Shown here in pieces: positions 61 through 58,385 of a DNA stretch of 58,385 nt. The position numbers and the translations under genes are program-made. Under the pieces are notes generated by a model that saw nothing but the letters and a program-made list of their open reading frames with translations, was not told the DNA's origin and ran no database searches. The stretch's first letter is position 1; every line of letters starts with the position of its first letter. The stretch is from Chrysochromulina tobinii. Lineage: Eukaryota. The stretch is from contig JWZX01003227.1 in the NCBI GenBank assembly GCA_001275005.1, forward strand, positions 1 through 58,385. The letters are read 5' to 3'.

Positions 61-1518
61 GCGCCCCCAGCATCCTCGTCAACATTCGGCGCTGTTGCGG
101 GGGCCTCCTGGAGCTGTTCGAGGCGGGCATGCAACTCGCGGCGTTCGCGCTGGTAACCGACGAGCTCCTCGTGCAGCAAGCTCTCGTGCTGCGCTGCGCG
201 CTGCACCTCGGCGCGCATCTCTCCGGCCGTTGCGCGCGCCAGCTGCAGCTTCACCTGACGAAACTCGAGCGCACGGAGTCATCAGGGCTCATCAGGGCTC
301 ATCAGGGCTCATCAGAGGTCATCAAAGGTCATCAGTGGCACTCGCCTCGAGTTTCGTCGCACTCCGCTGCAATTCGGCGAGCGACGCCTGGTTCTGCGAG
401 GATTGCGCAAGGAGATCCAGGATCTCAGAGTCTGGAGACAGCTCGACGCCGTCCTCGGCGCCGTCTGCAGATGCGACAACCTCCTTCGCAGCCAACCGCT
501 CGAGCTCGAGGCGCAGCTGCGCCACCGTGCGCCTCAGCTCGTCGAGCGCGTCGGTACAGTCGGCATCGCCGTCATGCTCGCCACCGGCGAGCGCGCCAAG
601 CTGAACCTCGACCCCCGCAAGCTCGCCCCGCATCGCGTCGCTCTCGATGCGCCGCAGCTTACGCAGCCGCTCCTGGAAGCTGCACAGCGTCGCGACTGTC
701 GACGACTCGAGCTCATCCAGCGCGCTCAGCACAGTCGCAGGGCCCGCGCATGCCGACGACTCGTCCGCCACGGCCGCCTCGACACCCATTTCAGCGAGCT
801 CCTCAGCGGTTGGCACGCGCTCAGGCACGCGCTCTAACAGCCCTCGGGCTTTCAGCCCTCGTGCTAACAGCCCTCGTGCGCGCTCAGCCACCTCCCCTTC
901 AGCGGCGGCCCTGGCTGTTTGCGCCATCTCCGCCTGCGCCTCCGGTGGCGGATCGTTCCTCTCGGCGCGCAGCAGCACCTGTTCGCGGTCCAGGTCGATG
1001 GCATCGCGGTCCTGCGCGCGCCGTCGCTCGAGCCATCGCAACACTTCGAGCAGCTCCATCGTGAAGCTCGATGAGCGCACGGAGAGCGACGCAAACTGCT
1101 CGGCGATCGAGTCGTCGGGCGAGAGTGCATTGAGCGGCGGCGGCTGGATCATCGCAGAGACAGGCAATCCCTTCGCCCTAGCCGCCTTAGCCGCCTCGGC
1201 CTCTGCAAACTCGACTGCAGAGGACCGGCGATACGTGTTGTGCAGCACAGCCGCGGTGCGCTCAATATTCTGCGCCGAACGGTCGAGCATCGTGTGCGAG
1301 AAGTTCTGCTGCTCGAGCATGCGCTCGAGTTGCTCGAGTCCGCGGTCGCCCAGCCCGGCCTCCTCGACAGCGGCACCGCTTCCACGGCTCAAGGCGTCGA
1401 GCTCCTCCTTGAGAGCAAGCAGCAGCTCGTGCAGCACCTGTTTGTCCACACCGAACACCGACTCGTCCCACATCGTCGGCACGAGCGGATCGAAGCGCGC
1501 GAGTGGATTATCGACCAT
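1..1518 (-). CDS. Hypothetical coiled-coil protein, 3'-partial (runs off the window start); exons 1518-346 and 254-1
   Basis: Removing a GC-AG intron at 255-345 joins ...SATKLE to VKLQLARATAGEMRAEVQ...ELHARLEQLQE, continuing the heptad-like pattern into poly-Gly. The start at 1518 (MVDNPL) is tentative. Confidence 0.65.
255..345 (-). other. 91-nt GC-AG intron with 10-nt tandem repeats and an inverted copy of the upstream exon end
   Basis: Sense junctions GAG|GCGAGT...TTTCGTCAG|GTG; internal TGATGAGCCC-type units; 257-269 is the reverse complement of 346-358; splicing restores the frame. Confidence 0.8.
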
Positions 1519-2873: not shown

Positions 2874-4694
<1,821 letters not shown>

Positions 4695-4873
4695 TCACAC
4701 ACGCCGGTGTGAATTATAAACATTGGCTGTGAATGGACCTTTACCCCCACCACCCTCAGACGTCACAGAAACACCGACATGATTTATGTACATGGAAGAC
4801 AGACCCTGCTCTCTCCATGGCGAATGGCCCTCACTGTCAGCACCCCGACTCAGTCCTTGGGGGTCCGCGCGGA

Positions 4874-7800: not shown

Positions 7801-9343
7801 GGTACACCGCAAACTTGACCGACGACTCGATTGGGTCCCGGCCAGGGGCAAGGACGAGCCGCACGAAGGGGAGGAGTGCGAGGAGCAGTGCCACGAGCAT
7901 CAGGATCTTGGCGCCATTACAACCGATGGGCGAGGCGTAGCAAGCGGACTGGCCCAGAGTGAGTACGCCCCCGATGGTGACGATCCCAAGCCAGAACGTG
8001 GTGAAGTGCGCCGCGAAGGGGGTGAGCGCGAGCACGCCGCGCCGCGAGAGCATGATGAGTACATTGTACAGCGTGAGCGCCTGCAGGCAGGCGAGCGCGA
8101 TGAGCACGATCGACAGGCGGCTCATATTGTTGGCGGTGGCCGTCGCGGTGCCACCCGGTTCGGAGAATGGAATAGCGCGCGTCTTGACCCATGCCCAGTT
8201 CTGCAGGATGAACTCCATGGCGGAGGGCACCGCCGACAGCGTGACCGCACCGAGCGTGCCCGAAGTGAAAGTGGTTACGCCGAGCAGCGTGATGTAGACC
8301 CCGAGCAGAAGCCCCGGGCGCATCGTCTTAGCCGCATGCGACTCGTCGCGTTGGTGGTAGCGCGAGAGCACGATGCCTAGGAACCAGATGAGCAACGAGC
8401 ACACCACGACATGGAGCGTGCCGAACCAGATGGAGTTGGGCAGCCCGCCATAGGCGAAATACCACGTCCAGACACCGAAGCCGAGCGCGACGAAGGCGAC
8501 GATCACGAGGGAGACCTGGAACCAGCCGAAGAAGCCGGCGGCGAGGCGCGCGTCCTCGTCGTCCGCCTCGCGGCGCAACCGCGCGCGCTCTGCGGGCGAA
8601 CGGCTCGTCACGTCATCGGCGAGCGAGCACCACAGGACGAAGGAGCCCGCGGACACGAGCCACGCCTCGACTGTGCCCCATGCTGTGCGCGCGGCGATGT
8701 AGTTCCAGCCCTGCGTGCACATCGCGTTCGAGCCCTGCGCCGCGTACACGATCGAGAGCGTCACGAGGGCAAGCGCGGACCAGAACACTGTCCACACGAA
8801 AGTCACCGAGACCACCGTGCTCAGCCTCGGATAGACGCTTGTGCCGCGCCGTGGGAAGAGCATGAACAGCGGGCCGACGCGCAACGCTGTCGACGGCACG
8901 TGCGGCAGAAAGCCGCGCTGCACTTCGCCCATTCTCTTCATCGAGATGAGGCACGAGATCAACGCGGTGAAAAACGCGTCAAAGGGCAGCGACTGCGCAA
9001 TGGAGGTGGGCGCACCCGAGTAGCCCGCCGGATGTGCCCAGTTGAAGAGGCAGATCTGAACGGGCTCGTGGTCGGCCCAATTTGTGAGCACGCCCCAACC
9101 GATGATAATGTGTGCGCCTACGGAGATGGCAGTGGTCAGTGCGAGCTGCAAAAGGCACGCCGATGAGCTCAGCGCGGTGCGCAGCTGCCCGAGGCTGTCC
9201 TCGAGATGCACTTCTCCGAGGGCCGACGGCTGCGTGCGAAAGGAGCCGGGCAAATTTTGCGATGAGAGCAACTGCTGGGCCTGTTCGCGGCTCAGGGTAC
9301 TCGAATGGCCGTTCGAGCTGAGAGGAGGGCTTGCGGCTGCCAT
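4874..9343 (-). CDS. 1489-aa hypothetical multi-pass membrane protein with a Cys-containing, beta-rich C-terminal ectodomain
   Basis: Uninterrupted ORF; many hydrophobic segments in the N-terminal half, a Ser/Arg-rich loop, one further TM, then an Asn/Gly/Ser/Thr-rich region with N-x-S/T sites. Confidence 0.75.
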   Translation of the reverse strand: MAAASPPLSSNGHSSTLSREQAQQLLSSQNLPGSFRTQPSALGEVHLEDSLGQLRTALSSSACLLQLALTTAISVGAHIIIGWGVLTNWADHEPVQICLFNWAHPAGYSGAPTSIAQSLPFDAFFTALISCLISMKRMGEVQRGFLPHVPSTALRVGPLFMLFPRRGTSVYPRLSTVVSVTFVWTVFWSALALVTLSIVYAAQGSNAMCTQGWNYIAARTAWGTVEAWLVSAGSFVLWCSLADDVTSRSPAERARLRREADDEDARLAAGFFGWFQVSLVIVAFVALGFGVWTWYFAYGGLPNSIWFGTLHVVVCSLLIWFLGIVLSRYHQRDESHAAKTMRPGLLLGVYITLLGVTTFTSGTLGAVTLSAVPSAMEFILQNWAWVKTRAIPFSEPGGTATATANNMSRLSIVLIALACLQALTLYNVLIMLSRRGVLALTPFAAHFTTFWLGIVTIGGVLTLGQSACYASPIGCNGAKILMLVALLLALLPFVRLVLAPGRDPIESSVKFAVYLVYIALTAAFCLGSTITLGVAGSGVLASIDNNWDTINLALPDAAFLSSGHRRDLFRSSAETSLGVLATLGSAALLQLLVMLSLSLYTRYATLGELLGTRAGANRVADVPSIEDLDGASGLGRSKSWWYSASPKRLTRELLLGVEDSEAPHSTLGRTCSAPPGFAAPSLPRVLEDRVTPPGSDQYDSLDKYQTRVRGGAAAGSADRLQHQESVLSNVDNDGVGQVLLHNAELFPTWFSSSVPRLPCSLRFLFAGLALVIAYVAGMVYFDSVAGAAVPFKTSARQSLQLSVPFSLNYSLYPQNPSYFANDATILNIVNNFHHGTTQVLFSHGSVAEVQVYLTVDTSHTLTEDVVLSATSCTSIGSSSSSAWPSGGVCYTPPTVSCQSRVSGAQSSGNACNSAQLNITASPPGSCNEQCSWYWLWFPCRCHASANLTIVLPNAAVNANISQLLAAPYTTPLVVSGVGATNNMFQHAFIDLNIASPNGGAVRIAPLDSTPTPLNPGDISDLLGRFGVNNLNVQANGDVVLEQVLAVGAVDVASNVGATILTDIFGGAGVTASAASITVTDAFIAQPCIFVQLLGQWVGGSACAGMGVPMGERPCIYNNPPCDPTKVAPPFGLVLGALSLTANGDFDGAILMNGTVISASAPMVAAKGIMAFSGARFVGSMQMTFTEDTKKGSAANLNNVAVLDCAVCKPVSLLSQLSWVDLPLSAALPTIFCACQPPETYGILLSANDASMTALLAIGSNITATSVSGALVLDEYVLTSQKPTTNINGTQVGPNAPTPVVNLFSTYGDVQLNGLISTSLTPGAQYNISLQSMAGDVKALFTGGALDGNYEVRTEPGGIGHTGIVIDNQVTKKKSGHVGGAGNASVYLYHDYGELSLSMSTNAPSVFDGITGSLTSGGGSSLFGAGAPATEPDACGAPANRMPASSALERVPVAQRVFRALTAMAEAEWGVDEQELLQHRRALEAIRSEL

Positions 9344-9390
9344 GTGGTCCGGCGACTCCGATTCTCAATCAAGACAAATAAAGTTTTGAC

Positions 9391-9432
9391 GCGTCAAGTC
9401 AAGACATGTCAAGTCAAGTCACCGAGTGTCAA
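9391..9432. promoter_or_regulatory. GTCAA (TTGAC) pentamer cluster in a divergent intergenic region
   Basis: gtcaagtcaagacatgtcaagtcaagtc...gtcaa lies between divergent starts at 9343 and 9555; the same pattern recurs at 27964-28031. Confidence 0.4.
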
Positions 9433-9554
9433 AATGGCGGACACACGTGTGTTTTCTGAGAGGGCAGTACATGTAACAGTGCCGTAGTGTTAACTCAAAC
9501 ACGGCCCGGAAAGGTCCTGAAAGGTACCATGGGTAGGGCCCCGACGTGCGAAAG

Positions 9555-25862: not shown

Positions 25863-27938
25863 TCAGTCTTCACACGAGTCTTCATCTTCAACCTTCCCCG
25901 CCTCCTCGTTTTCAGATTCGCTCTCAGGATCGCGGCTCCGCCGCCGCTGCCTTGCGCTTGCGCTCATCGTTTCCAGCAAGCCGCCGCGCCGCGCCGCTGC
26001 CTGCAGCCGCCCTCGTCGGACCGGCAAGACATCATCAATGAGTAGCAGCTGCGCGAGGCAGCCCAGGACGCCATCGACGAGCTGCAGTTTGAGGTCGAGT
26101 GGCTCGAGGATGCCGGCACTGGCAGCATCGGACAGCGACTGCAGGTGCACCTCGCCTACCGCACTCGGCGCCTGCGGCGGCACCAACACGAGTCCCAGCG
26201 CGCACCGCGACGACCGATCGTGCGCAGCTCGCAGGCTCTGTAGCACCGACGGCCAGCGGCTCGCATGCGCCGAGAGCGCGCGCGCTTGCGCCGCATTCAT
26301 GTGCAGCTGTCGCACGGAGCGACGGACGCGCTGTGGTGAGCACTTGCATGCAAGGCGGCTCATCCGTGGCAATCAACGTACCTGTCGCACGGGAGCGAGG
26401 AGCGCGGCGGAGAGGATCTGCAGCACGGCCGTTTGCTCAGGAAGGAGCGCCGTGGCGCTCGCGCTCGTACGCGCTTGCTTCTGCGCGGCTACCAACCGTC
26501 GCACGCTCGCCTCGAGCTGCATCTCAGCCGCCCCAGCGCCCGGGAGCGCCAGCAACACTCTGCGCCCCCACTCCTTTGCGTCCGCGTCAGTCCTCGTGCG
26601 CCCCGCGTCCAGCCACAGTCGCAAACTCCGCAGTGCACGGCCGACGGCGGCAGCGTACTCGTTTGCAAGTCCAGGCGAGGTAGCACGCACGACGAGCGAG
26701 CACAGCTGCGGCGCGCTCGCGAGCTGCACGCGCACGTAGCCCCGCCCGCCCAAGCGCAAGCACTCGAAGCTGCATCCTGGCTGAGCGAAGCCCGCAGTCG
26801 GTGTGAGCAGCGCCGTGAGCTCTGCCGGCCGAGGCCAGCGCTGAAGGATGGAGATGCCAGCCGCGGTAGCGAGCGCGCGCAGGTCGTCCTCATCGACGCC
26901 GGGCACGGCGCATACGCCGTGCTGTGCGCACAATTGCACCGTCAGCGCGCTAAGTGGTGCACCGCTCAGTAACAGCCGCACGCCGGCGGCATGGGCTGTC
27001 TGCACCCACGCCTCCCGCGATGCATGCACGAAGTCCACCCACCGGCCGGCCGCGCTGTCTATGCCGTTACAAGTAACGGCCGCGCTGTCTATGCCGCCGG
27101 CAGGCGCTTGATCCGCACTGACCACCACCTCGGCGGGCACGCCAGCCTCCACAGCCCTAGCCTCCGCTGCCGTCTGAACCTCAGGCGCTGCCGCATGGGC
27201 ACCGAGCAGCAGAAGCACACCATCCTTGCCGAACACTGGCATCAGCTCCGAGGACGGCGTGCCGCCGATGATTCGCCCTGCGGTTGCGCACGAGCGACTC
27301 GGCTGCGCACCGGGTGCGGCGACGAGTGCCAAGCACCTCGCGCGCGCCACCGTCCCGTCGAGTTGCCACGTGGCCGCTCCAGCAGGCAGCAGCGTGGCCG
27401 CTCGGGCAGGCAGCACCGCCTCGATGAGCGCCTCGGAGAGCGAGGCCGACGCGCTCGCACCCAGCTGCACGCCGAGCGCCGTTGCGGCTACACGATACGC
27501 ATCGGCACGAAAGGCGTCATCGCCGTCCAGCGTGCGCACCGCCTGCTCTCGCCAGCACTCTGTGAGGTTGTGCGGCAGCACCTCGAGCTGCAACCAGCAG
27601 ACGGCCCTTGACAAGCGCACCCGCCATGCCGCTTGGCGGTCCTTAGGAAGCGCTTGCAGCTGTTGGCCCACCTCGGCGCGTGCAGCGTCAAGCATAAGAG
27701 CGTAGGCTTTCACACCGTCACCGGCTATCTGCTCATGTGCTGATGCGGCTTCGAGCATGAGGCTCTCGATGGGGTGCTGGCTGACGATGGAAGAGAGAAT
27801 GCTCGCGCCACTACAAGTTAGCACTGCCTTACGCGCGGCAGTCAGTAGGAGTTTCTCGCGAGCCAATGGACCGAATGAGGAGCCGAGCGCGCTGCCAAGG
27901 AGTCCGACGTCCCACTTGTGAAAGTCGTAGACGGCCAT
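25863..27938 (-). CDS. BBS10: Chaperonin-like Bardet-Biedl protein, best resembling BBS10; exons 27938-26382 and 26306-25863
   Basis: SSFGP, QHPI and AGDGVK (BBS10-type GDGxK); after splicing 26307-26381 the TCP-1-like C-terminus GILEPLDLKLQL...LLLIDDVL is in frame. Confidence 0.7.
26307..26381 (-). other. 75-nt GT-AG intron with the palindromic motif and a direct exon-end duplication
   Basis: CAG|GTACGT...CAG|CTG; exon end TCGCTCCCGTGCGACAG versus intron end TCGCTCCGTGCGACAG. Confidence 0.85.
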
Positions 27939-27963: not shown

Positions 27964-28031
27964 AGTCAAGCCGTCAAGTCAAGTCAAGTCAAGTTCAAGA
28001 AGTCAATTCAAGCCAAGTCATTTCAAGTCAA
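27964..28031. promoter_or_regulatory. (AGTCA)n / GTCAA repeat cluster between divergent BBS10 and ENY2
   Basis: About ten gtcaa/ttcaa units starting about 25 nt upstream of the BBS10 ATG. Confidence 0.45.
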
Positions 28032-28274
28032 TCCATCGAGTGAGCAAAGTTCTGCTCTTCACCACGAGTAGAGATCCAGCGCATGCGTGTTTACGCGAAA
28101 TCGTCACCGTCACACACTCACTCACTCACTTCATTCACTCAGTCACTCACACACACTCTCGTGAACCGCCGGAGCCTGACGTGGCGAACGCCCAAAACGC
28201 CGCTTCGAAGCATCGCAGGCGAGCGCCACGAAGGAGCGCTAGCGTTGGTGTGGTCAGCCGCCGCCCGCGCCACG

Positions 28275-28883: not shown

Positions 28884-29457
28884 GCCGCTGACAGGTGCTC
28901 CCGATAAGTGCGCCATGACAGACGTATCCTCGATGCCCTAGAGGCGCGCCAACTGTCTGTCGCCCGGAGGACTGCGGAGTCTACTGTGCCCAAAGTTCAG
29001 TCGCTGTTGCTCATGGTGGCGTGGGTCGAAACCCCGGGTGGCGGTCTGCGCGGTCGTACTGGCAACTGGGATGCCGCATGCGTGCGTGGCAAGATTCTCC
29101 GGTTGCTTTCCTTCACAGGTGTTTTGTGTGGGCAACAGGCGCGAACGCAGCGTGTGAGCGCTCAGCGTATTACTAGCCATGTTTGCACTATTAAACTAAG
29201 TGCGCGGCGCGTGCGTGCGTGCATAACTGGATGAAACGGGTGAAACAAGGACCCAGTTTAGGACCGCGCAGCCCCTCCGGACCGCACGGAACGTGTCCCC
29301 CCCCCGCCCCGGTCGGTCGACGAACGCACACGGAGAAGAGAGTCAGAGACCGCTCGCTCGGCTGACGGCTCCCCTCTCTTTCGTCTCTGGTTCTGCGGTG
29401 CAGGTCGGGGCGTCGAACGCGCCGCGACGCTCGACATGGCGGCGAGATGCGAACCAG

Positions 29458-29586
29458 GAGGCTGCTGCGCCGCGGGCACGAGCCGTCGCTCATCCAGCAG
29501 CGTATAGGCGCTGTGATGAGCACTTGCATGCAAGGCGGCCGAGGCTACTGCGCCGCGGGCACGAGCCGTCGCTCATCCAGCAGCGT
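29458..29586. repeat. 46-nt direct repeat (29458-29503 and 29541-29586, one mismatch) flanking the palindromic motif
   Basis: Read directly from the sequence; the single mismatch is the ATG18 stop TAG versus CAG. Confidence 0.95.
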
Positions 29587-30933: not shown

Positions 30934-33900
30934 TTAGCTCCGTGACGCGTACGTTGCGCTTGGGGCCGGCGCGGGTGCGGGCGCGGGCGCCGCGAGCACA
31001 TTCTTGAACGAGACGAGCCGCTCGGCACGCTCGCGATAGGTGCGGAGGAGCTCGGGGAGGAGCTCTTCGAGCTTCTCGTTCTCGGCGATGGCCGAGCGGA
31101 ATGTGACCTTGGCCAGGCCCGTCGGCTCGCCGGCCGCCGCATCGACACCGACGTGGTGCGTGAGCGTGCCGCCCGTCATCTTGTTCATGTGCAGCTGGAT
31201 CTTGAGGGAGCCTACTGGTAGGGCACGCGATGCCTCACGAGAGGCCTGGCGGCGCGCGAGGATGGCGTGCAGCGGCTCGTAGAGGGGGAGCACCTGCGCG
31301 AGGCCGAGGGGCTGCGGAACGAAGGCGAAGCAGCCCGGCTGCGCCTCGCCATAGAGGAGGCGCCACACCTCACAGAGCGTCAAGCGCAGCCGGGCGTGCC
31401 CCGCCGAGCCTCTCCCCATGAGTTCCCACAGAAGGCTGGCGGCCGCAATGGGCGCCGCCTCCCCGCGTTGCGCGAGCCGGCGCCGCTCGCGCTCGAGCCC
31501 CGCGCGGTAGCTCACGGCGGCGCGTGCATGCCTGTCCCTTGCCTCGTCCTCATCGTCGAGGCCGTCCTCGCCGACCGCACGCGCGCCGCGCACCGCCTGG
31601 CTCCCCTCCGAGTGTGAATTCACAGCCTGCTTGAGCAGGCGCAGCACCGCTTGCCAGAGCCACAGCTGCTCTAACGGCTCGTCCTTCCGCCGCTCCGAGA
31701 GCCCGAGGGCGAGCCCGAGCACGGACGTCGGGCGCGGGTGCGACGGCTCGTGCCGCACGGCGCCCGTGCCGCCCGTGCCGCCCTCGCGCCCAGCCCCAGC
31801 TGTGAATTCACACTCGGCTCCAACCGCTTCATCGCGAACGGCTGCCGCCTCGTCTGGCCGCTCAGGTCCGGCGAGAAGGGTGAGCCGGAGGAGGCAATCC
31901 GCGGCGGCCAGGCGCACGGACGGCAGCTGGCCGGCGGCCTCGTAGTGCCAGTAAGTGCGCCAGCTGGGGGTGGAGGCGGTGTCGGCCGAGGCGGAGGCCG
32001 AGGCGGAGGCGGGGGCGGAGGCGGGGGCGGAGGTCGATGCGGAGTGCGCGCGTGCAATCTCCACTGTACAGAGCGCATGCAGCGCGGCGCGGCAGAGGGC
32101 GCCGCCGTCGCGCGCGCCGGCGCCACGCCCTTCGAACGAGACGGAGACGAGCCGAAGCTGCCGCGTGATTCGGGCAACGACCTCGCGTTTTGCCCCTGGG
32201 TGGCGGCAGCGCGTGGTCGCGAGCGCCCGGAGCAGCGCGCCCACGTAGGCGCCATCGTCGAACTCGTTGCTCTCGTTGTCGTTCTCGTCGATGAGCTGGA
32301 GGAGCAGCTCGAAGGCGCCGGCCGGGGTGAAGCCCGAGGCGTCGCGGCACGTGCCGAGCGCCTCGACGAGCGCCTTGAACGTCGCGTACTCGCTCAAGTC
32401 CCCAAAATCGTTCGGGAGGACGTGGCCGCCCGTGTCGCACAGGAGCTCGCGCGCGAGCGCCACGAGCGCCTCGGCAGCCGCGCCCTCCGACACGAGCGCC
32501 GTGAGGCGCGCGAGCGCCGCAACGGCTGCGGTGCGCACGCGGAAGTACACGCTCCGGTCGCGCGCCACGTCGACGAGTGTGTGGACGGCCGTTGGGTTGG
32601 GAAAGGTAGCGAGGGCCGCCGCCGCCGCCTCTCGCGAGGGCACGTCCCGATCAAAGAGCAGCTGCGCCGTGCACATGCTCTCGGGCATGCCGGCCCACGC
32701 GCCATCGCCGGCGCGCCCGGTCCACGTGACGCGCACTGGCAGCTCGAGCCGCGGGTCGAGGCGTACCCAGAGCAGCGGGAGCAGCTGCCACGGCGCGGAG
32801 CTCGCCTCGTCCGCATCGTCGACGGCGGCGCGCGAGCGCTTGAGATGGCGCCGTCGCCGATGCGAACTGATCACCACTTCAATGAGCTGCTGCCGATCGA
32901 CTGGGCTGAGCTTCTTGTCGATCGTGCGGCTCACGCCGCCGTCGGCGCCGTCGTGCTCACCCCACCCGATGACGAGGGGGAACTCTCCGATCTGTGCGGC
33001 GGCCAACGGCTTGGGCGAGATCACGACGAGCTCGAGGCGGTGCTGCGGCTGGTTGAAGGCGAAGTTGGCGCGCAGCGTGGGGCACGGCTTGGCGGCGTAC
33101 ACCCACTCGCTCGCGAACGAGGCGCCCAACCGCACTCCCTGCGCCACGCATGCCGCCAGCAGTGCCGCCGTCGACGAAATGCGCTCAGGACGGCGCTCAT
33201 GCATCCCAGCCACCGCGGACGTCGAGGCGGTCGGCGTGCCGGCGTGCGCTGCGCAGCTCGATTCGACTGGCCGCCTGTTCGGCCGACTGGGCAGCAGATG
33301 CGCGAGCAGCCGGCTGAGCGACTGTTGGCCGCCGTCGGAGCGGATGGCAGCGGCCTCGATCATTCGCCACACGAGGGGCGCCTTGCGCCGGCGGTACTCG
33401 GTGAAGAGCTGCTCGGGATGGAGCCCACCGCCCCACCGCTCAAGCTCGGTGCTGTCGGGCACGAGAGCCTCTGGAGGCGCTCCCGCCTCCGTGAGCCACG
33501 CGCGCTCCTCGCTCAGCCGATGAGCTGCCTCGTCCGAACCGAACAGTGATCATCAGCGATCATCAGTGGCAATCAGTGGTCATCAGCGGTCATCATCAGT
33601 GGTCATCATCAATGGACACTCACCTGCCTCGTCCGAGCCAAACTCATGACGCGTGTACTCGTGCACCAAGCGCCCCTCGAGAGCCATGAGAAGCCATGCC
33701 TCGCGCCAACCGTCGAGCCACAAGAGCGCGAGCAGCCACGAGCGGCCAAGCGCACGGCCGAGCTCGATGCAGCTCGGGCGCGCCGGCTCGAGCGCCTCGG
33801 GCGAGTGGAGCCAGTGAGAAGAGAGCAGCACCAGCCCTCCAAACGATGCTGTCTCCTCACGAGCTCCTTCGAGCACCACGAGCACGTGGCGTGCGTACGG

Positions 33901-40369: not shown

Positions 40370-41818
40370 TTACGAGTGGGATGTTGCTGCGGGGGCTCCG
40401 CTCGCCGCCGCGAGCAGCTCCTTCCAGCGGCCAGCAGCTTCCGGCACGAGCCAGTCCCACGTCTGCTCCACCGCATGCGAGGCCTTAGGCGAGGCCGCAT
40501 TCTGCTTCTGGACTGCCCACACCATGGCCTCGAGCATGCGCTGCTTGCCACCGTCGTGCGTGAATCGGCCGTCAGAGTAGGCGCGCCACACCGTGGAAAG
40601 CACCTCGGGGAGCGGTGCCACCTCGGTAATGTGCCACAGACCCGGCGATGCCGAGGGCAGCATGCCTTCCGTGAGGACGTACCGAGGCGAGTTGCTCCCG
40701 CCCTTTGGCGCGCCGTGCTGCTTGCCGACGATCACGAGGCACGTCGGCCAGTACGCGAGGAGCATGTCACCCTGCTGCCGCGCGACGACCACATTGCCCT
40801 TCTTGTCAAAATACTTGTCGCGCTTCCGACCCTTGGGCTTGGCTCCGCCTTCGGCGGTGCGGCAGGCGGAGCGGGGGTCACTGGGCGCCGCCAGGGCTTC
40901 GGTTGCCGCCTCGCTGCTGGGGCACGGCATCGTCGAGTGGTGCGAGTGCGCCGACCACGTGCCCGCGGCCGCGCTCGCGATCGCGCCGCCGCTGGCTTCG
41001 CTGGCCATCAGCTCGGCCACGGTCTGGAAGCCTTCGAAGCCTGCGGGCAGCGGGCGCTTCGCGCCGGTGACGGGCGTGGGGGCCACACCTGCGGGCGCGC
41101 AGCGAAACTGCGGGCGCACGAATGGGATGTGTTTATCCTGTGGGGCAACGAGACTCGACGCAGCCAAAGGGCGGTGAGTAAAGACCAAAGTCAGCAGTGG
41201 GCCCTCGCTGCCCCTGCCACGCCGCTCGACGCATACCTGGCGCATGAGCTCCTTCATGCGCGAGATGCACTCCCCATCGGGTAGGTGCGCCGGGGCAAAG
41301 GGGCGCAGCACGGCCACGGGCAGCCACCTGCCGCCCCCCTCGAGCGGCTCGGCCTCGAGGCACCGCACCGGCGCGGTGAGGAGCTCGGGTGAGTGCCGCG
41401 TGCTGACGCTCTCGCCGTACAGCTTGAAGCGGATGTCACGCTTGCCGAGCACGGCCTCGTCGAGCGCCCCGACGACGTAGACCTGGAGCAGCTCGATGTA
41501 GTTGGCCGCGTTCGAGTGCGGCAGGAACTTTTTGAGCTGCCCCATCGCGGCATTGACGTGCGGAAAGAAAGCGCCCACCTGGCTGCCGTCCGGCGACTGC
41601 AGCACCGTGATGTTCTCGAGCGTCCAAAATTCGACCTTGTCGACGCGCAGCTTGATCACGGGCGCGCCCGTTGGCGCGAGCACCGACAAGTGCAGCCGCG
41701 AAGCGTCCGCGCCGCCGCCGGTCGCGACGCCGCACGTCGCCCGCACCATCGTTCGCCGGTACAGAGCGCGCGAGGTGGACGTCCATCGCTGCTCGTTCAC
41801 GTGAACGTCTAAAAACAT
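40370..41818 (-). CDS. Hypothetical protein
   Basis: Long ORF with coding-like codon pattern and no recognised motif; start uncertain (41818 or 41749). Confidence 0.6.
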   Translation of the reverse strand: MFLDVHVNEQRWTSTSRALYRRTMVRATCGVATGGGADASRLHLSVLAPTGAPVIKLRVDKVEFWTLENITVLQSPDGSQVGAFFPHVNAAMGQLKKFLPHSNAANYIELLQVYVVGALDEAVLGKRDIRFKLYGESVSTRHSPELLTAPVRCLEAEPLEGGGRWLPVAVLRPFAPAHLPDGECISRMKELMRQVCVERRGRGSEGPLLTLVFTHRPLAASSLVAPQDKHIPFVRPQFRCAPAGVAPTPVTGAKRPLPAGFEGFQTVAELMASEASGGAIASAAAGTWSAHSHHSTMPCPSSEAATEALAAPSDPRSACRTAEGGAKPKGRKRDKYFDKKGNVVVARQQGDMLLAYWPTCLVIVGKQHGAPKGGSNSPRYVLTEGMLPSASPGLWHITEVAPLPEVLSTVWRAYSDGRFTHDGGKQRMLEAMVWAVQKQNAASPKASHAVEQTWDWLVPEAAGRWKELLAAASGAPAATSHS

Positions 41819-44606: not shown

Positions 44607-45827
44607 CGCCTTGGGTGAGACGGCGAATGGCTTCATGACGGTCGGGCCGCCTTCGACCCTCGCGGCCGGGAGCAGCTTCCTCCTCGAGTGGGCTCTGACC
44701 AGCCAGCCGGAGACGGCCGTGCTCGAGACGGCCGTGCGTGCCCTCACCGCCGAGGTGCGCCATCTCGAGCTCGAGCTCACGCGCCGTCTCGAGCACGAGC
44801 AGCAGCGGGCGGCGGTTACGGCGGAGGCGGCGGTTACGGCGGTTACAGCGGTTACGAGATCGGAGCCCGAGGGCGCTCACGAGGGCGCTCAGAGCGCTGC
44901 CGAGGGCGCTCACGAGGGCGCTCAGAGCGCTGCCAGGCAGCGGCTGCTCGCCGCCCTCCAGCGGCTCGTTAGGATGCTCCCCTCCGCTGCGAACGCCTCC
45001 GCCCCCTCCCCCAACGGCGGCGCTGTCGTGGGCGTGGACGCTATCGTGGGCGTGGACGCTGTCGTGGGCGGCGCGAACGCCTCCGCCCCCTCCCCCAATG
45101 GCGGCGCGGCCGCCGAGGCCGCGCCCGCTCCTGCCGCCGCCAGCGCCTCGAGAGAGAGACGCGAGGAAGCGTTGGTGGCCGAGGCGCTCGAGGGCGCGCT
45201 TCGGGCCCAAAAGATCTTCCGCGACAAGGTGGAGGAGTGCCGTCGGCTGCGCGCGTCCATGCGGCGCTCTCCGGTGGTGACGAACCCCGCGCGCTCGAGC
45301 GATCGCTCGGGGTTAGTCACCACCGGATTCCGCTTCGACGACCGTGTGGCCTTCGTGCGCCGCGCCAGCGTCCCCCGGGGGAGTGCCCCCGGGGGGAGTG
45401 TGGCCGCTGTGGGCGCCGGGTTGGGCGCTCCCGGGCAGCTCGTGGCGGCGGGCGGCAAGGCAGCGGCGCCCCATTCAGTGCCATTGTATGTTGCATTGCG
45501 TGAAGGTGCCGCTGGACCTCTCCCTCCTTTCTCTGGTGGGCGTCTCTCTGCATGCAGGTGCTCACCACGGCGCCCTCGCCTCTCCCCACAGGTGACGCAG
45601 GGCCTCCCTACTTTCTCTCGAGGGCGTCTGAGGAGAGCCTGTGCCGCGCGATGCACTGTACGCATGCGAGCCTGCCGCCCGTCGCCATCGGCAAGGTGGT
45701 GCACGTCGAGAAGCTGCACGCATCCCCCGAGAACGCGGCGGCTCTTGGCTTGCGCCCTGGCGCGCCCTTCAACGTCATCACGGCCGAGATGCACACCGAC
45801 CTCGCGCCCGAAGTGACGGGAAGGTGA
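42154..45827 (+). CDS. ATG11/FIP200-like scaffold with an embedded ATG1/ULK kinase domain; exons 42154-45505 and 45592-45827
   Basis: Kinase motifs IGTGSFAQV, ALKAI, HRDIKPQNLLL, IADFGLAR, TVCGSPLYMAPE; Claw-like C-terminus after splicing; N-terminal helical region resembling ATG17/ATG11. Confidence 0.8.
45506..45591 (+). other. 86-nt GT-AG intron with the palindromic motif (alternative in-phase donor at 45536)
   Basis: GAAG|GTGCCG...CCCCACAG|GTGACG; splicing shifts into the frame of ORF 45552-45827. Confidence 0.8.
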
Positions 45828-46302: not shown

Positions 46303-46381
46303 CTGAGCCGCACCTCAGCAATGTATCGCAATGTATCGCAATGTATCGCAATGTATCGCAATGTATCGCAATGTAGCGCAC
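46303..46381 (-). other. Putative 79-nt 3'-UTR intron: (GATACATTGC)x5-6 with an exact 15-nt flanking direct repeat
   Basis: ctgagccgcacctca at 46303-46317 and 46382-46396; sense junctions CAG|GTGCGC...CTCAG|. Confidence 0.65.
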
Positions 46382-47804: not shown

Positions 47805-49130
47805 GGCCCGGCATGGCGCAACGCCCGATGGACCACGCTCGCCTCCTCCTGCAGCGCATGGGCCTTGAGACCAATGGTGCGCATCATCTCGAGTGCCGCG
47901 TCGAGCTCGTCGCGCATCGCGTACATGAGCGCATCGCGCGACGGCCCCACCGCCTGCTCAAAGTCGGCAGCTTCCGCCTGCTCGAAGTCGGCGGCTTTCG
48001 CCTGCTGCTGCCGCTCCTGCTGCTGCTCCTCGAGCCTCAGCCGGAGCCGCCGCATCTCATTCTGCTGCTGCATGTGCTGCAGCATGTGCTGCTGCTGCTG
48101 TTGCTGCTGCTGCTGAAGGAGCTCCTCCCTCTCCAGAAGCTCCGCGCGATGGCGTTCGCGCTCCTCCTGGCGCTGACGCGTGGCCTCGGCTTCGTCCCAC
48201 GCCTTCTGCAGCTCCTGTGCCTGAAGAAGGAACTCGTCCTGCGCGCGGCGCTCCGCCTGGCGCGCGGCGACCGACCCTGCCTCGTGCATGCGACGCTCCT
48301 GCCCGAGTCACACGCCGAATTCTCGCAATTAGAAGCCAATCTGAGGCAATCAAGGGTCATCAGAGGACATCAGTGGTCATCACCTGCTCCAGCCGCGCGT
48401 CCTCCGCTTCGCCGAGCACAGACGCGGCCACGCGTGCTTCGAAAGCGGCGCGTGCCTCCCGTTCCCATCCGTCCCACGCGGACGAGGTGCGCCGGAGGGC
48501 CTCGAAACGCGCGAGCAGCTGCGGCAGCGTGCCGATCGGGTTGATCACGGGGCGCCGCTGCTGCGCGAGGGCCGTGGCATCCGCTGCAGAGAGGGCCTCC
48601 TTCCACATCAGCAGCAGGCAGCCCGTGGTTCCGGCGCGGTGGGCGCCAGCAAGGCAGTGCACGAGCACATTGTTGCCGGCGCTGAGCGCCTCGTCGACGA
48701 AGCGGAAGAGCGGCGTCACGAAGTCGAGCAGTGACCGCGAGTCGCCTGAGTGGCGCATGTGGTGTGCCGCGTGGAACCGCATGTACTTCACGCCGCCATC
48801 ACAAAAGTTGGGCAGGTCGTCGGTCGCGTTCACGACGTGCGTGATGTCGGCCGCCTTGAAGTAGCTCAGGGGGCCGCGGGCTGCCGATTCGTTGCCCACG
48901 AAGATGATGCCGCCCGTGGTAGGATCACGCCAGAGGGCGTCCATGTCGTGGTAGCTGGCGCTGTCGCCCTCGCCGAGCGTGGCAAAGAGCTTGCGCGCCT
49001 CGGCGGAGTAGTCGTGCTCGGCCGGGCCCGGCGAGTGCTGCTCGAGAAGCGCGAAAAGCCGCCGTGCGGCGGCGGAGTCCATGCCAGCCGCTGCTGATGA
49101 GCGCATTCGCGCGCGGTCCTCACTGTTCAT
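46508..49130 (-). CDS. Dual-specificity phosphatase with coiled coil, acidic tract and WW-like domain; exons 49130-48384 and 48298-46508
   Basis: VLVHCLAGAHRA (HCx5R), ITHVVN, RRPVINP; WW-like PGWKVMRTAAGEPFWFNEISGSTS; intron 48299-48383 joins two ORFs in frame. Confidence 0.85.
48299..48383 (-). other. 85-nt GT-AG decamer-repeat intron
   Basis: CAG|GTGATGACCACTGATGTCCTCTGATGACCC...GGGCAG|GAG; only GCAG is shared with the exon end. Confidence 0.85.
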
Positions 49131-50932: not shown

Positions 50933-51931
50933 AGCGGCGGCAGCGGCGGCAGTGGAGACAAAGTCGGTGGTGGCATCGAAGATGGTGGTGGTGGCTTCGG
51001 GGGAGGTGGTGATTGCATCCCGGGTGGTGGGAGTGGCATCGGGGGAGGTGGTGATGGCATCGGAGGTGGAGGCGGCAAGGGCGGTGGCGATGGCGGCGGT
51101 GGTGATGACGGTGGTGATGGCGGCGGCGGCGGCGGCGGTGACGGCGGAGATGGCGGTGGCGACTGTGAGGGTGGCAGCACTGGCGGAGGTGGCAGCGGAA
51201 AAGGCAGCATTGGCGGCGGACGCGGTGGCGTCGGCGAAGGCAGCAGCGGTGGTGGCGGTGACGGCGAGGGCGGCGGCGGCGGCAACCAAGGTGGAGGACA
51301 TGGTGGTGTCGAGGGTGGCGGCGACGGCTTCGGGGGAGGTGGCGGCGTTGGAGGTGGTGGCGATGGCAGCGGTGGTGGTGCTGGTGATGGTGGTGGTGAA
51401 GGTGGTGGTGGCCACTCTCGAGGGCCGCAATCGGTGCAGTCGGTGCCAAGGTTGCAGTCAGAGTACACCGTTCCGGGTCCGCCGTCGTCGCACCCACCGT
51501 CTGAGGCGTAGTTGCACATGTCTGTGCAGGTTGATGGTGGCGGCGGCGGAGGTGGCGGCAATTGCGAAGACGGCAGCAACGGTGGTGGTGGCATTGGTGA
51601 AGGTGGCGGGGACAGCGAGCACCTGTCTGTCGTGTTAACGTTCACACGACGCCCGCCTCTTACCCCCAGCTTTTTGAGTTGCCGAACCTATTTACGTATC
51701 CGCCGCCTCGTCACTAATTGGGGGTCAAAGTGGGCTGGCCAGTACGCAATACGCAACACGCAATACACAACACGCAATACGCAACACGCAATACGCAACA
51801 CGCACAGAGGGTCAAAGTGGGCTGGATGTGAAAATTGCAGTCATACGCACGAAACATCACCTCAGAGCACGGACGATCAACCGTCGCATGCAAAACCAAT
51901 TCACCAGCGCACACGCAAAAAAGCACGCCAT
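49212..51931 (-). CDS. Proline-rich (extensin-like) cell-surface protein with three Cys-rich DGGPG repeats and a C-terminal TM; apparent +1 frameshift at G11 50051-50061; tentative first exon 51931-51861 with intron 51623-51860
   Basis: Three CxxxC..A.dg.C.DGGPG...C..GTDC.DCG modules in SPPPP linkers; the TM LGLQGLMLVSVAAFAFV lies in the adjacent frame after the homopolymer. Confidence 0.7.
51722..51825. repeat. 7-nt tandem (ACGCAAY)n flanked by the 17-nt direct repeat gggtcaaagtgggctgg
   Basis: Copies at 51722-51738 and 51809-51825. Confidence 0.9.
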
Positions 51932-52096: not shown

Positions 52097-52816
52097 TCAA
52101 ACATCGGCGCTTCTTCCTTCGTTTTCCTTCATCTTGGTGAGTAAGTCAGTGAGTGCTGAGTTAGTGAGTGAGTTAGTGAGTGAGGTGAGTGCGTGAGTGA
52201 GTCTTAACTCAGTCATCTTGGTGGTGTAATGCGACACCCCGGTCTGGATGGCGCTGATGCAGCGATCGAAGAGCGGCTTGAAATCCTCGGGTTTGTTGAC
52301 GAACAATTCGGCGCTGACCCAGACATTTTTCTTGACCGTGGTGAATATCTTGACGACCTTGGTTTTGCTATTGGCGAAGTCACAGGCGGTCAGGACCTGC
52401 AGCCGCTCAGTTTCGTCTTCGATTTTCCAGATGTTGGGGAGCACGATGCGGAAATGCTGCGGATCGTTGCGTTCGGGAAAGATGTAATATAAAAGGCCTT
52501 CTTTCTTGAACATGACGTCGCCGTCGGAGTCCACTGTGGGCTTGTACCCCTCCTCGGTGAGGAAATCGACGTACAATTTGACGAGCTCGTCATCCTCCGC
52601 CTCGATCTGAAAAGAAGACGACGCGACACGCGAGTGGATGCCGACGCCCGGGACGTTGATGTCAACGCTCCCATCCTCGTGCAGCACCGCCACGGTGCAA
52701 CCCCCGAAACCGCCATAGCGCACCTTCGCGCCGACGGTGAGATCGGGCGCGGCCGGTGGCTCGGCGGAAGCGCCCAAGGCCAGCAAAAGCGCACAGGAAA
52801 GGAACACACGTTTCAT
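52097..52816 (-). CDS. Signal-peptide protein with a small SH3-like region and a bacterial-type YbjN-like domain
   Basis: Signal MKRVFLSCALLLALGASA; FLTEEGYKPTVDSDGDVMFKKEG...FRIVLPNIW...ANSKTKVVKIF resembles bacterial YbjN-family proteins. Confidence 0.65.
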   Translation of the reverse strand: MKRVFLSCALLLALGASAEPPAAPDLTVGAKVRYGGFGGCTVAVLHEDGSVDINVPGVGIHSRVASSSFQIEAEDDELVKLYVDFLTEEGYKPTVDSDGDVMFKKEGLLYYIFPERNDPQHFRIVLPNIWKIEDETERLQVLTACDFANSKTKVVKIFTTVKKNVWVSAELFVNKPEDFKPLFDRCISAIQTGVSHYTTKMTELRLTHALTSLTNSLTNSALTDLLTKMKENEGRSADV

Positions 52817-55890: not shown

Positions 55891-58385
55891 TCAGAGCTCG
55901 GCTAGCCGACTGAGCGCCGCTACCTCAGGCGACTGGGACTGCCACGCCTGCTCGATGCGCTCCTGACAGCGCACCCACGCAGGCAACGGAACGGTGCCGT
56001 CCGCATTCGTCTCGTCCACAGCACGCAGGATGTGGCGCCCTTCCTGCTCGAGGAGTGCCTTCCGATGAGGGATGCAATCAGAGGCCATCAGCGGCCATCA
56101 GCGGTCATCAGCGCACCTGCTCGAGAAGTGCGTGCAGCTGCGTGCGTCGCTTCGCGTCCCACTCGCGCGCGATTGTCGAGTATGACGGGCCCGCCGTGTG
56201 GTCCGCCTCCAAGAAGGCGAGGAAGGCCTCCGGGTGAGCACCAGCGCCTTCGAGCAGCATCCGAAAGCGCATTGTGAATAGCTCACACACGCATTCGGCA
56301 ATCTCGGCGCCGTGGCGCGAGTCGCTCGTGAGTGCCGAGAGCACACGCACGATGAGGAGGCGCGTCTCCGTAACGGCTGCCGGTGTAACGGCTGCCGGTG
56401 TAACGGCTGCCGGTGTAACGGCTGCCGGTGTAACGGCTGCCGGTGTAACGGCTGCCGGTGCGACTGGTGTAACGGCTGCCGGTGCGACTGGTCCCAAGAG
56501 CGGGCGCAGCAGCAGCACGAGGCCGCCCAGTCGGAGGAAAGCGAGCACCGCGGCCGGCGAGCGGCGCACAAGGTCGACGACGAGGCCCAGCGAGCCGGCG
56601 GCCAGCGTTGGGGTGCGCGTGCTCAACGCGACGAGGCCCAGCAGATGAGCGCCCTTGACCGACGAGGCGAACTCGATGGCGCCCACGACGGCGCCGCCTG
56701 GCTTGGAGAGGGCCTGCAGCACCTGCAGCACGAGTGAGAGCACCGAGAGCGGCATCGGCGAGCGCACGCTACCGAAGAAGAAGTCGGCCGCCGCGACGCA
56801 CGCGCGGTGCGTGCACAGGGACGCATGCAGCGTGAGGAGCTGCAGCAGTGCCTTCCACATCAGGGCCGCGTGACGCCCCAGGCGCACAACGGCCGTCTCG
56901 GCATCGAGCGCGTCGTCCTGGGCGCATATCGCGTCGTCCTGGGCATATAACGCGTCGTCCTGGGCGCCTCGGGCGCTCGTGGCCGCCGCCTCCTCCTCCT
57001 CCTCCTCCTCGGCCTCGATTGCAAATCGTGGCTGCGAAGCGCTCATCACGGCGCTGTGGAGCGGGCGAGACAGGTCCCGAAGCGCCGTGATGAGCGCCAC
57101 CAGGAAGTGGCCGGCCGCCGCTGCCGTCGCGAACGAGAACTTGCCGTCCGCGGCCACGAAGGGCTCGAGGAACAAGCCGCCCACATTGAGGTCCGTCTCG
57201 GCTGCCGCGAGCTTCGCAAGCAGTGCGGTGGGCGCCCAGCACGGCGCCCAGCCCACGTCACTCCTCACCGGCGCCGTGCTGGGCGCCGTACTGAGCGCCG
57301 TCCTGAGCGCCGTGCTGGGCGCCGTGCTGGGCCCGCCGCCGCGACCGTCGCCCACTCCGAGCAACTCGACGATCGGGCCCAGCTCGTCCTCCTCGAGATC
57401 ACATCGGAGATTACATCGGAGGTTGCATCGGAGCGACTCGACGATCGGGCTCAGCTCGTCCTCGAGGGCTAGGCGGAGCCGCGACCGCCGCTCGGCGTGC
57501 CAGATCAGGAGCGGGTTGGAATGATTCGCGTCGAGCTGAGCGAGCAGCGCGCTCGCCTCCCCAAAAGACATGCACGCGAGCTCATCCACAAACTGCGGCG
57601 ATTAGTGGCAATTATTGGCAGTCAGTGGCAACTGGTGGAAATTAGTGACAATTAGAGGCGATTAGTGGCAATTAGAGGCAATTAGAGGCAATCAGTGGCG
57701 CCCACCTGCGGCGCGAGGCAGCGATCGAGGAGCTCTTCCGCCGCAGGGCCCACGGTGGCGTCGGCGAGCAGTGCGCAGAGAGTGTCGACTGCCGCCGCGC
57801 GCACTTCGATCGAGGCGCCTTGGAGGAGCGGGTCGGGGAGCGGGTCGGGGGGCGGGTCGGGGGGCGGGTCGGGGGGCGGGTCGGTGGGGGCGATCGGGTC
57901 GGTGGGGGAGGTCGGGGAGGGGCTCTCCGGCAAGTAGTCGAGCAGTAACGTGGAATGGCCAAGGACATGGAAGAGACACGAGAGCACGACTCCTCCGCGC
58001 ACCACCGCCTCCGCCACGCTCACAACGGCGCCATTTGGCCCGACCGCACCACTGGGCCCGACCGGTGCGTTGTCTCGCCGGTCGCTCAGCACGGCGCGAG
58101 GCGGGCGCTCAGTACGGCGCCACGGGCGCTCCGACGAGGCGCCGTCCTGAGCGCCCGTGCTCTCGAGCCTGATGAGGGCGGCAATCAGGCGCAGCGTGCC
58201 CGCACGCCCCCTCGGGGGTAGTGGTGCGTGCGTGTAAGAGCACGTGGAGCCGCGGGAGCGCCTGCAGTGCGAAGCGCACGGCCGCGTCGCGCGCCGTCGT
58301 GAGCGCCCCGGAGGCCGCTCGCGCTGTCTCGGGCGCATCGGCCGTCGCGGCGGCGCGCGCCGTCGTGAGCGCGGTGGGCGTGGGT
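55891..58385 (-). CDS. 5'-partial helical-repeat protein resembling the RME-8/DNAJC13 C-terminal region; introns 57593-57705 and 56044-56116
   Basis: LDANHSNPLLIW and LNVGGLFLEPF resemble RME-8 NPxLIW and ELxVGxxF segments; two introns join three ORFs in frame; upstream exon structure unresolved. Confidence 0.55.
56044..56116 (-). other. 73-nt GT-AG decamer-repeat intron with a 14/15-nt direct exon-end duplication
   Basis: Exon end GCACTTCTCGAGCAG versus intron end GCACTCCTCGAGCAG. Confidence 0.9.
57593..57705 (-). other. 113-nt GT-AG intron almost entirely of 10-nt repeats, with an 8-nt direct duplication
   Basis: About ten CTAATTGCCW/CTGATTGCCT units; CGCCGCAG ends both the exon and the intron. 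Confidence 0.9.

What the first reader, a model, noticed from the sequence alone, without database searches (positions are those of the whole stretch)
57593..57705. The decamer unit is both a branch-point motif and an all-frame stop cassette
Seen: on the sense strand the unit reads CTGATGACCA, CTGATTGCCT or CTAATTGCCA in the introns at 255, 33525, 48299, 56044 and 57593, always in the same orientation relative to transcription. Most units contain CTRAT and a TGA or TAA. With a 10-nt period, three consecutive units place a stop in all three frames. Established: CTRAY is the U2 branch-site consensus and premature stops trigger NMD. Inference: the filler makes a new insertion immediately spliceable and makes unspliced transcripts degradable. 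All five host genes are on the minus strand here, so the strand bias needs outside confirmation.
Basis: partly seen in the sequence, partly recalled or inferred. Interest (0 to 1): 0.72.

Follow-up and report, generated by a model that had tools for sequence, protein, structure and literature searches.

The report
Repeat filler that builds new introns
In a haptophyte alga, short introns are filled with a 10-base repeat and often bracketed by a copied piece of the gene itself, which likely marks an ongoing way of making new introns; the repeat probably supplies the splicing branch point, while its stop codons look like a side effect of that motif.

Summary
Observation confirmed. RNA contigs splice out the 113-nt focal intron; it holds ten decamers with stops in all frames. 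The strand bias holds outside the window: Pfam hits flank arrays on the same strand in 31 of 148 flank pairs, on the opposite strand in 1.

A branch-point role is plausible (last unit's A sits 17 nt from the AG in 52 of 64 acceptor-bearing arrays) but unmapped. All-frame stops follow from a TRAT core at period 10. A sister filler with the same anatomy has no such stops (0 of 21).

The larger finding: 110 of 214 arrays lie between two copies of host sequence (9–52 nt). In most sense cases the copy supplies the GT or the AG, so splicing would restore the gene. At least five arrays sit antisense as in-frame peptide inserts, so the filler enters both ways and selection likely filters it.

Best reading: intron gain by templated break repair with a shared repeat filler, Introner-like but without fixed ends. 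The scan noted the duplication footprint before in this genome (e1-2577349). I recall, but could not read, a report of strand-biased 10–11-bp intron repeats in Emiliania.

The parts
57593..57705 (-). Focal intron, 113 nt, GT..AG, class B (filler-borne donor, acceptor inside a duplicated piece of the upstream exon end)
   Evidence: RNA joint 57592>57706 in runs X14 and X16; frame open only when removed
57596..57695 (-). Ten tandem decamers; candidate branch adenosines 10, 20, 30, 50-100 nt from the intron end
   Evidence: branch use inferred, not mapped
57706..57713 (-). Exon copy of the 8-nt direct repeat
   Evidence: sequence; 8 letters fit either side of the joint
57593..57600 (-). Intron-terminal copy of the 8-nt direct repeat; supplies the AG
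56044..56116 (-). Decamer intron, 73 nt, class B, same gene
   Evidence: spliced in 4 of 4 RNA runs, 10 letters fit either side
48299..48383 (-). Decamer intron, 85 nt, in a dual-specificity phosphatase-domain gene
   Evidence: RNA contig X14 record 19 skips it; Pfam DSPc
33525..33623 (-). Decamer intron, 99 nt, class B, in TAF2; 13-nt exact duplication of the exon end
   Evidence: homologs P0136-P0139 run across the junction
255..345 (-). Predicted decamer intron, 91 nt, GC donor; its 3' end is a 13-nt inverted copy of the upstream exon end
   Evidence: no RNA laid here
45506..45591 (+). Predicted intron made of a GT-starting host duplicate plus the sister (non-decamer) acceptor cassette, in a plus-strand kinase gene
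   Evidence: predicted
26307..26381 (-). Predicted chimeric intron: two decamer-like units, the sister cassette, then a duplicate of the upstream exon end
   Evidence: predicted
46303..46381 (-). Period-10 array with the same donor-plus-duplication layout whose unit has no TRAY and no stop; lies downstream of the phosphatase-gene ORF end
   Evidence: splicing not shown
58169..58188 (-). Single decamer plus class-A acceptor end, upstream in the focal gene; candidate further intron end
   Evidence: an RNA contig of X14 stops at 58169, a weak hint only

Best explanation
The decamer array is a shared filler that sits between two copies of host sequence in many of this haptophyte lineage's short introns, and it was likely inserted there by templated repair of staggered DNA breaks, creating new introns. 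Shown: arrays lie in spliced introns, are flanked by variable-length host duplications, and occur in both orientations with a strong sense excess. Inferred steps: (1) a broken end primes on an existing array elsewhere, copies part of it, sometimes in several rounds or by fold-back, and re-anneals so that 9-50 nt of the site are duplicated; (2) a sense insert survives when splicing restores the mRNA: either the filler ends in a CCCTCATCAG-type acceptor and the duplicate supplies GT (class A), or the filler starts with a GTGAGT/GTGATG/GTGCGC-type donor and the duplicate supplies AG (class B, the focal intron); (3) CTRAT units offer a branch adenosine every 10 nt, so some A is usually at a workable distance whatever the duplication length; (4) antisense inserts carry few stops and persist mainly as in-frame peptide inserts or in decayed genes. 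The all-frame stops are a by-product of TRA within CTRAT at a 10-nt period. They may expose retained introns to decay, but nothing here shows they are selected for that.
For: Splicing. Duplications: exact direct repeats of 12 nt or more in 136 of 295 arrays versus 24 of 1469 swapped-flank and 5 of 240 local controls; after merging and removing filler-like matches, 110 of 214, length 9-52 nt, median 18 in the sense set. Clean GT/GC..AG removal possible in 61 of 79 sense cases versus 14 of 79 on the opposite strand; 29 class A, 24 class B, 8 intermediate. Orientation: Pfam 31 of 148 versus 1 of 148; codon model 47 sense, 3 antisense, 1 unclear, 46 below the coding threshold of 97, control 41/44. 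Antisense inserts: 6 of 8 antisense-scored cases are 3n, 5 of these have no clean splice and an open frame across; at L023 five homologs lack the insert; at L052 the peptide is kept in 6 of 7 protein clusters. Template-switch signs: 3 or more copies of the host piece in 15 of 110 inserts and junction microhomology of 3 nt or more in 9 of 30 versus 5% background; inverted host copies of 10 nt or more in 11 of 295 versus 10 of 1469. Recent gain: a 78-nt sister-filler intron with a GT-starting duplicate is in L054 and absent from its close homolog L058. Branch placement: last TRAT adenosine 17 nt from the AG in 52 of 64 TCATCAG-ended arrays.
Against: No empty site was found for a sense decamer intron; the one clean presence/absence case is the sister filler, and loss instead of gain is not excluded. 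104 of 214 arrays have no detectable duplication, and 18 of 79 sense cases with one have no clean splice. The repair pathway is inferred from footprints only, and the microhomology count is partly circular because it uses junctions where the duplicate reaches the first unit. The fixed 17-nt spacing may only reflect a fixed filler end. In class B the last TRAT lies 10-71 nt from the AG, and this tail is not shorter than the class-A head (p=0.11), so no length constraint from an in-array branch point was detected. At L023 two related proteins change frame at the array and the gene lacks about 70 residues seen in homologs, so it may be decayed and its 3n length is weak evidence of selection. Loci were picked by a pattern demanding three CTRAT cores at period 10, which builds in the period and the stops. 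Loci come from many assemblies and were not shown to be one species.
Confidence: 0.58

Rival explanations
1. Introner-like or retro-mobilised element: a short non-autonomous element (donor, decamers, sister cassette, acceptor) is copied by a transposase or a target-primed reverse transcriptase; variable truncation gives classes A and B.
For: Shared filler ends across unrelated genes: TCATCAG directly downstream of 64 of 262 arrays versus upstream of 2. Chimeras of decamers plus cassette recur (window 26307-26381, L022, L048, L074). Variable duplications with a fixed 3' end (class A) resemble target-primed retrotransposition (own knowledge). Introners that co-opt one splice site from a TSD are described, including in Chrysochromulina sp. 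(bioRxiv 2022.06.06.494994, section 7 read).
Against: Duplications are 9-52 nt, not a fixed 4 nt; duplication-defined introns run from 53 to 555 nt; no terminal inverted repeats; class B has a fixed 5' end and a ragged 3' end; host pieces are reiterated or inverted inside inserts. No autonomous partner was seen, but no genome was available to look.
Confidence: 0.2
2. One reading: the unit is maintained both as a branch site and as an all-frame stop cassette that sends unspliced transcripts to nonsense-mediated decay, and this is why it succeeds as filler.
For: All-frame stops in 304 of 342 arrays sense versus 33 antisense and about 65 in base shuffles; 59 of 61 duplication-defined introns. 3n lengths are not depleted among decamer introns (26 of 61), as expected if stops protect them. 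NMD as a backup for new introns is proposed in Drosophila (PMC2809761, abstract).
Against: The stops are inseparable from the TRAT core (core-kept shuffle about 294 of 342). The sister filler has 0 of 21 all-frame introns, and 9 of its 10 3n introns have no predicted in-frame stop (frame calls are uncertain for about half). A period-10 array with no stop in its unit lies at window 46303-46381. The focal intron is all-frame on both strands.
Confidence: 0.12
3. Secondary minisatellite: the arrays grew by slippage from the branch motif inside pre-existing introns, perhaps as splicing enhancers, and have nothing to do with intron birth.
For: Array length differs by whole units between close homologs (80 nt in L005/L007; 60 and 10 nt in L009/L076), so slippage does act. 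104 of 214 arrays show no duplication.
Against: It does not explain host duplications across the splice junctions or antisense arrays inserted in coding frames whose homologs lack them.
Confidence: 0.07
4. Telomerase-like addition: an RNA-templated enzyme adds decamers de novo at breaks, which are then closed with a duplication.
For: Reiterated short unit with variants, polarity (TGC-type units are last in 69 of 142 mixed arrays, first in 33), short microhomology at junctions.
Against: The haptophyte telomere repeat is TTAGGG (passages of PMC13518057, bioRxiv 2022.10.25.513657 and 2024.05.26.595999), unlike the decamer. The non-repetitive sister cassette shows the same duplications, so reiterative synthesis is not required. 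No template RNA is known.
Confidence: 0.03

Closest known systems
Introners that co-opt a splice site from their target duplication (Gozashti et al., bioRxiv 10.1101/2022.06.06.494994; Symbiodinium carries the 3' site, Chrysochromulina sp. carries the 5' site)
   Same: Shared intron sequence in unrelated genes; one splice site carried, the other taken from a duplicated host piece; removal leaves the mRNA unchanged; one presence/absence case here (sister filler).
   Different: Duplication 9-52 nt, not 4; no fixed length or ends; tandem filler; both co-option modes with one filler; reiterated and inverted host pieces; antisense in-frame survivors. I could not see the paper's Chrysochromulina sequence (figure not held), so identity with it is untested.
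Neointrons from staggered double-strand-break repair in Daphnia pulex (Li et al. 2014, PMC4202315; review PMC3443670)
   Same: Direct repeats of exon ends at the opposite intron end; internal repeats (61% of neointrons there); most new introns carry premature stops (93% there).
   Different: There the repeats are 4-12 bp and the introns are AT-rich; here they are longer and the filler is one shared motif family with branch-like and splice-site-like parts.
10-11-bp intron repeats with strand and positional bias in the Emiliania huxleyi genome (Read et al. 2013, Nature; recalled, paper not held)
   Same: As I recall it: haptophyte, period about 10, intronic, strand-biased.
   Different: I recall no link to intron birth, duplications or branch points there, but I saw none of the text or supplements, so the overlap may be larger.
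U2 branch-site consensus YTRAY / yUNAY (own knowledge)
   Same: CTRAT matches; sense bias; placement 17 nt from the AG in class A.
   Different: Repeated in tandem through the whole intron; branch use not mapped.

Membership tests
Introner | Family of introns with shared sequence in unrelated genes | tested here: met
   342 arrays with one unit family; shared acceptor end in 64 of 262
Introner | Near-identical copies with defined ends and length | tested here: not met
   Duplication-defined introns 53-555 nt, one end ragged
Introner | Fixed-length target duplication and/or terminal inverted repeats (present in many, not all, families) | tested here: not met
   Duplications 9-52 nt; no TIRs evident in the 61 introns listed
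Introner | Splice site co-opted from the duplicated site, mRNA unchanged | tested here: met
   61 of 79 versus 14 of 79 on the opposite strand; RNA for two class-B introns; TAF2 homologs
Introner | Presence/absence between close relatives | tested here: inconclusive
   One case for the sister filler among 9 homolog pairs; none for a sense decamer intron
Introner | Mobilising transposase or RT | not testable with these tools
   No genome held
Break-repair neointrons (Daphnia type) | Variable direct repeats of exon ends above background | tested here: met
   136 of 295 versus 2% in two controls; 110 of 214
Break-repair neointrons (Daphnia type) | Internal reiteration of host pieces | tested here: met
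   15 of 110 with 3 or more copies
Break-repair neointrons (Daphnia type) | Dependence on end-joining repair | not testable with these tools
   Needs induced breaks and repair mutants
U2 branch site | YTRAY consensus on the sense strand | tested here: met
   Unit profile; orientation
U2 branch site | Consistent distance upstream of the 3' AG | tested here: inconclusive
   17 nt in 21 of 29 class A; 10-71 nt in 24 class B
U2 branch site | Lariat formed at that adenosine; pairing with this organism's U2 | not testable with these tools
   Only assembled RNA contigs were served; no RNA family match in the window
Selected premature-stop (NMD) cassette | Stops in all frames | tested here: met
   304 of 342; built in by the scan pattern for the ascertained arrays
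Selected premature-stop (NMD) cassette | More stop coverage than the branch core and period already give | tested here: not met
   Core-kept shuffle about 294 of 342; sister filler 0 of 21
Selected premature-stop (NMD) cassette | Retained transcripts are NMD targets | not testable with these tools
   Needs UPF1 perturbation
Telomeric repeat insertion | Unit equals the lineage's telomere repeat | tested here: not met
   TTAGGG in three other haptophyte genomes; this organism's own telomere was not seen

The most novel reading that the evidence does not exclude
Haptophytes run a transposase-free, self-templating intron factory: existing introns serve as repair templates for breaks in exons, and a decamer that offers a branch adenosine every 10 nt, with donor-like and reverse-complement acceptor ends, turns a sizeable share of repair events into ready-made introns, while the same filler in reverse writes short in-frame peptides into proteins.
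Probability: 0.35. Interest if true: 0.8.

Novelty: new variant of a known kind. Interest (0 to 1): 0.6.

Why it matters
How spliceosomal introns arise in bulk is an open question. The known routes are fixed-end Introner transposons and scattered break-repair inserts. This lineage shows an intermediate: one shared filler, variable duplications, two mirror-image ways of borrowing a splice site, antisense survivors that serve as a built-in control for selection, and at least one presence/absence case. That makes intron birth testable in a cultured alga by population sequencing and induced breaks. It also warns that gene callers read the antisense arrays as peptide repeats. The narrower dual branch-plus-stop idea matters less, because the two properties are the same three letters.

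Tried and rejected
21 were dropped before counts: 19 overlapping or homologous, 2 low-GC. An exon/intron predictor placed 3 of 5 window introns correctly, so intron statistics use duplication-defined boundaries. RNA structure: none of 5 introns folds better than shuffles (z from -0.81 to 1.86); a hairpin role was dropped. Rfam found nothing in the window. The decamer pattern hit 2 viral contigs; these and the 2 low-GC loci are 25-46% GC, lack the anatomy and were set aside as unrelated repeats. No length constraint on class-B tails (p=0.11) and no significant 3n excess (p=0.14). The WS/DGAT search gave no empty site. Literature: searches found no paper describing this decamer; Read et al. 2013 is not held, so absence from print is not established.

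Full report
Setting. The window is eukaryotic, about 60-70% GC, and gene-dense (Pfam). Its DDX41 helicase is closest, among named proteins, to Haptolina ericina (79%) and Prymnesium parvum (75%), so the host is a haptophyte, probably in or near Prymnesiales. No whole genome is held.

Observation. 57593-57705 reads GT..AG on the minus strand and holds ten tandem decamers; 7 contain CTRAT, 8 CTRAY, 9 a TAA or TGA, with stops 3/3/3 by frame. RNA contigs of 2 of 4 runs skip it exactly, and 4 of 4 skip 56044-56116. One contig skips 48299-48383. Four of four full-length TAF2 homologs run straight across 33525-33623. Intron 255-345 is predicted only. No array arose in five resamples of the window. 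In a DNA run, bins holding arrays draw summed contig depths of about 1,100-9,500 against about 80 for unique bins (one of these bins also holds another repeat), so the repeat has many copies elsewhere.

Outside test of strand bias. I kept 133 and found 342 arrays including the window's 5. A codon model trained on window genes called the strand right in 178 of 197 held-out pieces. It put 198 arrays sense and 19 antisense at margin 5, of 271 usable among 355 (partly redundant). With clean flanks only the split was 47 sense, 3 antisense, 1 unclear and 46 below threshold, of 97; random sites gave 41 to 44. Independently, I scanned the longest ORF on each strand for 148 of 204 flank pairs (35 duplicates and the 21 shortest dropped). 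Pfam hit 31 same-strand ORFs, in 24 loci, and 1 opposite-strand ORF. A few flank ORFs may belong to a neighbouring gene. The bias is real but not absolute.

The focal intron ends in a copy of the last 8 nt of the upstream exon. Across loci, exact direct repeats of 12 nt or more flank 136 of 295 arrays versus about 2% in two controls. After merging arrays and removing filler-like matches, 110 of 214 have a host duplication of 9-52 nt. Of 79 scored as sense, 61 can be removed cleanly as GT/GC..AG, against 14 on the opposite strand. Two mirror classes dominate. Class A (29): a GT-starting copy of the downstream exon, decamers, then a CCCTCATCAG-type end, whose last seven letters are the reverse complement of the unit's first seven. 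Class B (24): a GTGAGT/GTGATG/GTGCGC-type start, decamers, then a copy of the upstream exon end supplying AG. Fifteen of 110 inserts repeat the host piece three or more times. Inverted host copies are enriched (11 of 295 versus 10 of 1469), as in window intron 255. Against a universal rule: 104 of 214 arrays show no duplication and 18 of 79 sense cases have no clean splice.

Antisense inserts. Eight duplication-flanked arrays scored antisense. Six are 3n; five of these (L012, L021, L023, L052, L108) have no clean splice and an open frame across; the two non-3n cases splice cleanly in the array's own sense and are probably miscalled. At L052 the array is read as peptide in a WS/DGAT gene and kept in 6 of 7 homolog clusters. 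At L023 five homologs lack the insert, which shows an insertion with duplication. Two close relatives change frame at that array and the gene looks decayed, so L023 shows two-way insertion but not selection for frame. These peptides are gene predictions, not observed proteins.

Branch-point half. CTRAT matches the general branch consensus (own knowledge). TCATCAG lies just downstream of 64 of 262 merged arrays and upstream of 2, and the last TRAT adenosine is 17 nt from the end in 52 of the 64. In class B the distance is spread over 10-71 nt and shows no detectable constraint. In the focal intron candidates lie at 10, 20 and 30 nt. The role is plausible and unmapped.

Stop half. All-frame stops occur in 304 of 342 arrays, against 33 antisense, about 65 in base shuffles and about 205 in dinucleotide shuffles. 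Keeping only the TRAT cores in place gives about 294, and 2960 of 3243 stops lie in the core or directly behind it. The period is 10 in 983 of 1370 spacings, but the scan pattern demanded that. A second filler, a non-repetitive acceptor cassette (72 hits), shows the same duplications. Of 43 cassettes ending in AG, 41 have no stop, and their CTCA adenosine lies 20-43 nt from the end. Of 21 duplication-defined cassette introns none is all-frame, 8 have no stop, and 9 of the 10 that are 3n have no predicted in-frame stop (frame calls are firm for only 11). One is present in L054 and absent from L058. Intron-making filler in these genomes therefore does not need stops. The focal intron is also all-frame on its antisense strand. 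The stops may still expose retained introns to decay, but that is untested.

Mechanism. I favour templated repair of staggered breaks that copies from existing arrays (0.58). Variable duplication length, reiteration, fold-back copies, short microhomology (9 of 30 versus 5%, partly circular) and the mirror classes fit this better than a fixed-end transposon. A truncating retro-mobilised element remains possible (0.2). The repair step, the branch use and the filtering by selection are inferred; the splicing of three introns, the duplications and the two orientations are shown.

Literature seen. Gozashti et al. (bioRxiv 2022.06.06.494994): passages and section 7; figures and supplements not seen, and these may hold the Chrysochromulina sequence. 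Li et al. 2014 (PMC4202315): passages. Farlow et al. 2010 (PMC2809761): abstract and outline. PMC3443670: passages. PMC4580454: passages, nothing on intron repeats in those shown. Telomere passages in three haptophyte genome papers. Read et al. 2013: nothing seen, recalled only. Ten searches found no description of this decamer in the held library. An earlier scan note on the same genome reports a 15-bp duplication supplying a GT donor; my duplication counts were made before I saw it.

Verdict. Real, strand-biased, and part of an intron-gain signature. The branch role is likely; the stop cassette is a corollary of the same letters. New variant of a known kind; interest 0.6.

Noticed in passing
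L054 about 836-913 versus L058: 78-nt intron-like insert (GT-starting host duplicate plus sister cassette) present in one of two 97%-identical homologs.
   Followed up: yes
window 45506-45591 (+), 26307-26381 (-), about 29430-29545 (-): Three copies of the non-decamer acceptor cassette, each with a host duplication; the second is a chimera with decamer-like units, the third sits at the stop codon of the PROPPIN ORF with a duplicate of about 33 nt.
   Followed up: partly
window 46303-46381 (-): Period-10 array with donor and 14-nt duplication whose unit lacks TRAY and stops; probably outside coding sequence, between two convergent genes.
   Followed up: partly
window 58169-58188 (-): Single decamer plus acceptor end upstream in the focal gene; an RNA contig stops at this point.
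   Followed up: no
L012:4025-5896, L021:752-1387, L052:2179-3483, L023:982-1467, L108:1-540: Antisense decamer arrays read in frame as short peptide repeats; L012 and L021 also carry sense arrays on the gene's own strand.
   Followed up: partly
window 9393-9421, 27966-28031, 28110-28154, 51743-51804, 52137-52202: Other simple repeats (periods 4, 5 and 7) that seem to lie between genes; the 5-mer array also differs between L005 and L007.
   Followed up: no
window 40436-41652: Dense other letters between contigs of one DNA run and RNA runs, suggesting two divergent alleles or a paralog of this gene.
   Followed up: no
L002, L014, L019, L147: Host piece plus decamers plus acceptor end reiterated three to six times head to tail; could be real multi-round synthesis or later expansion, and assembly error is not excluded.
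   Followed up: partly
L155, L156, L039, L043: Look-alike decamer runs in 25-46% GC contigs (two viral) without intron anatomy; probably unrelated repeats.
   Followed up: partly
L110 about 221-364: A predicted decamer intron also contains two telomere-like CCCTAAC pieces near its 3' end.
   Followed up: no
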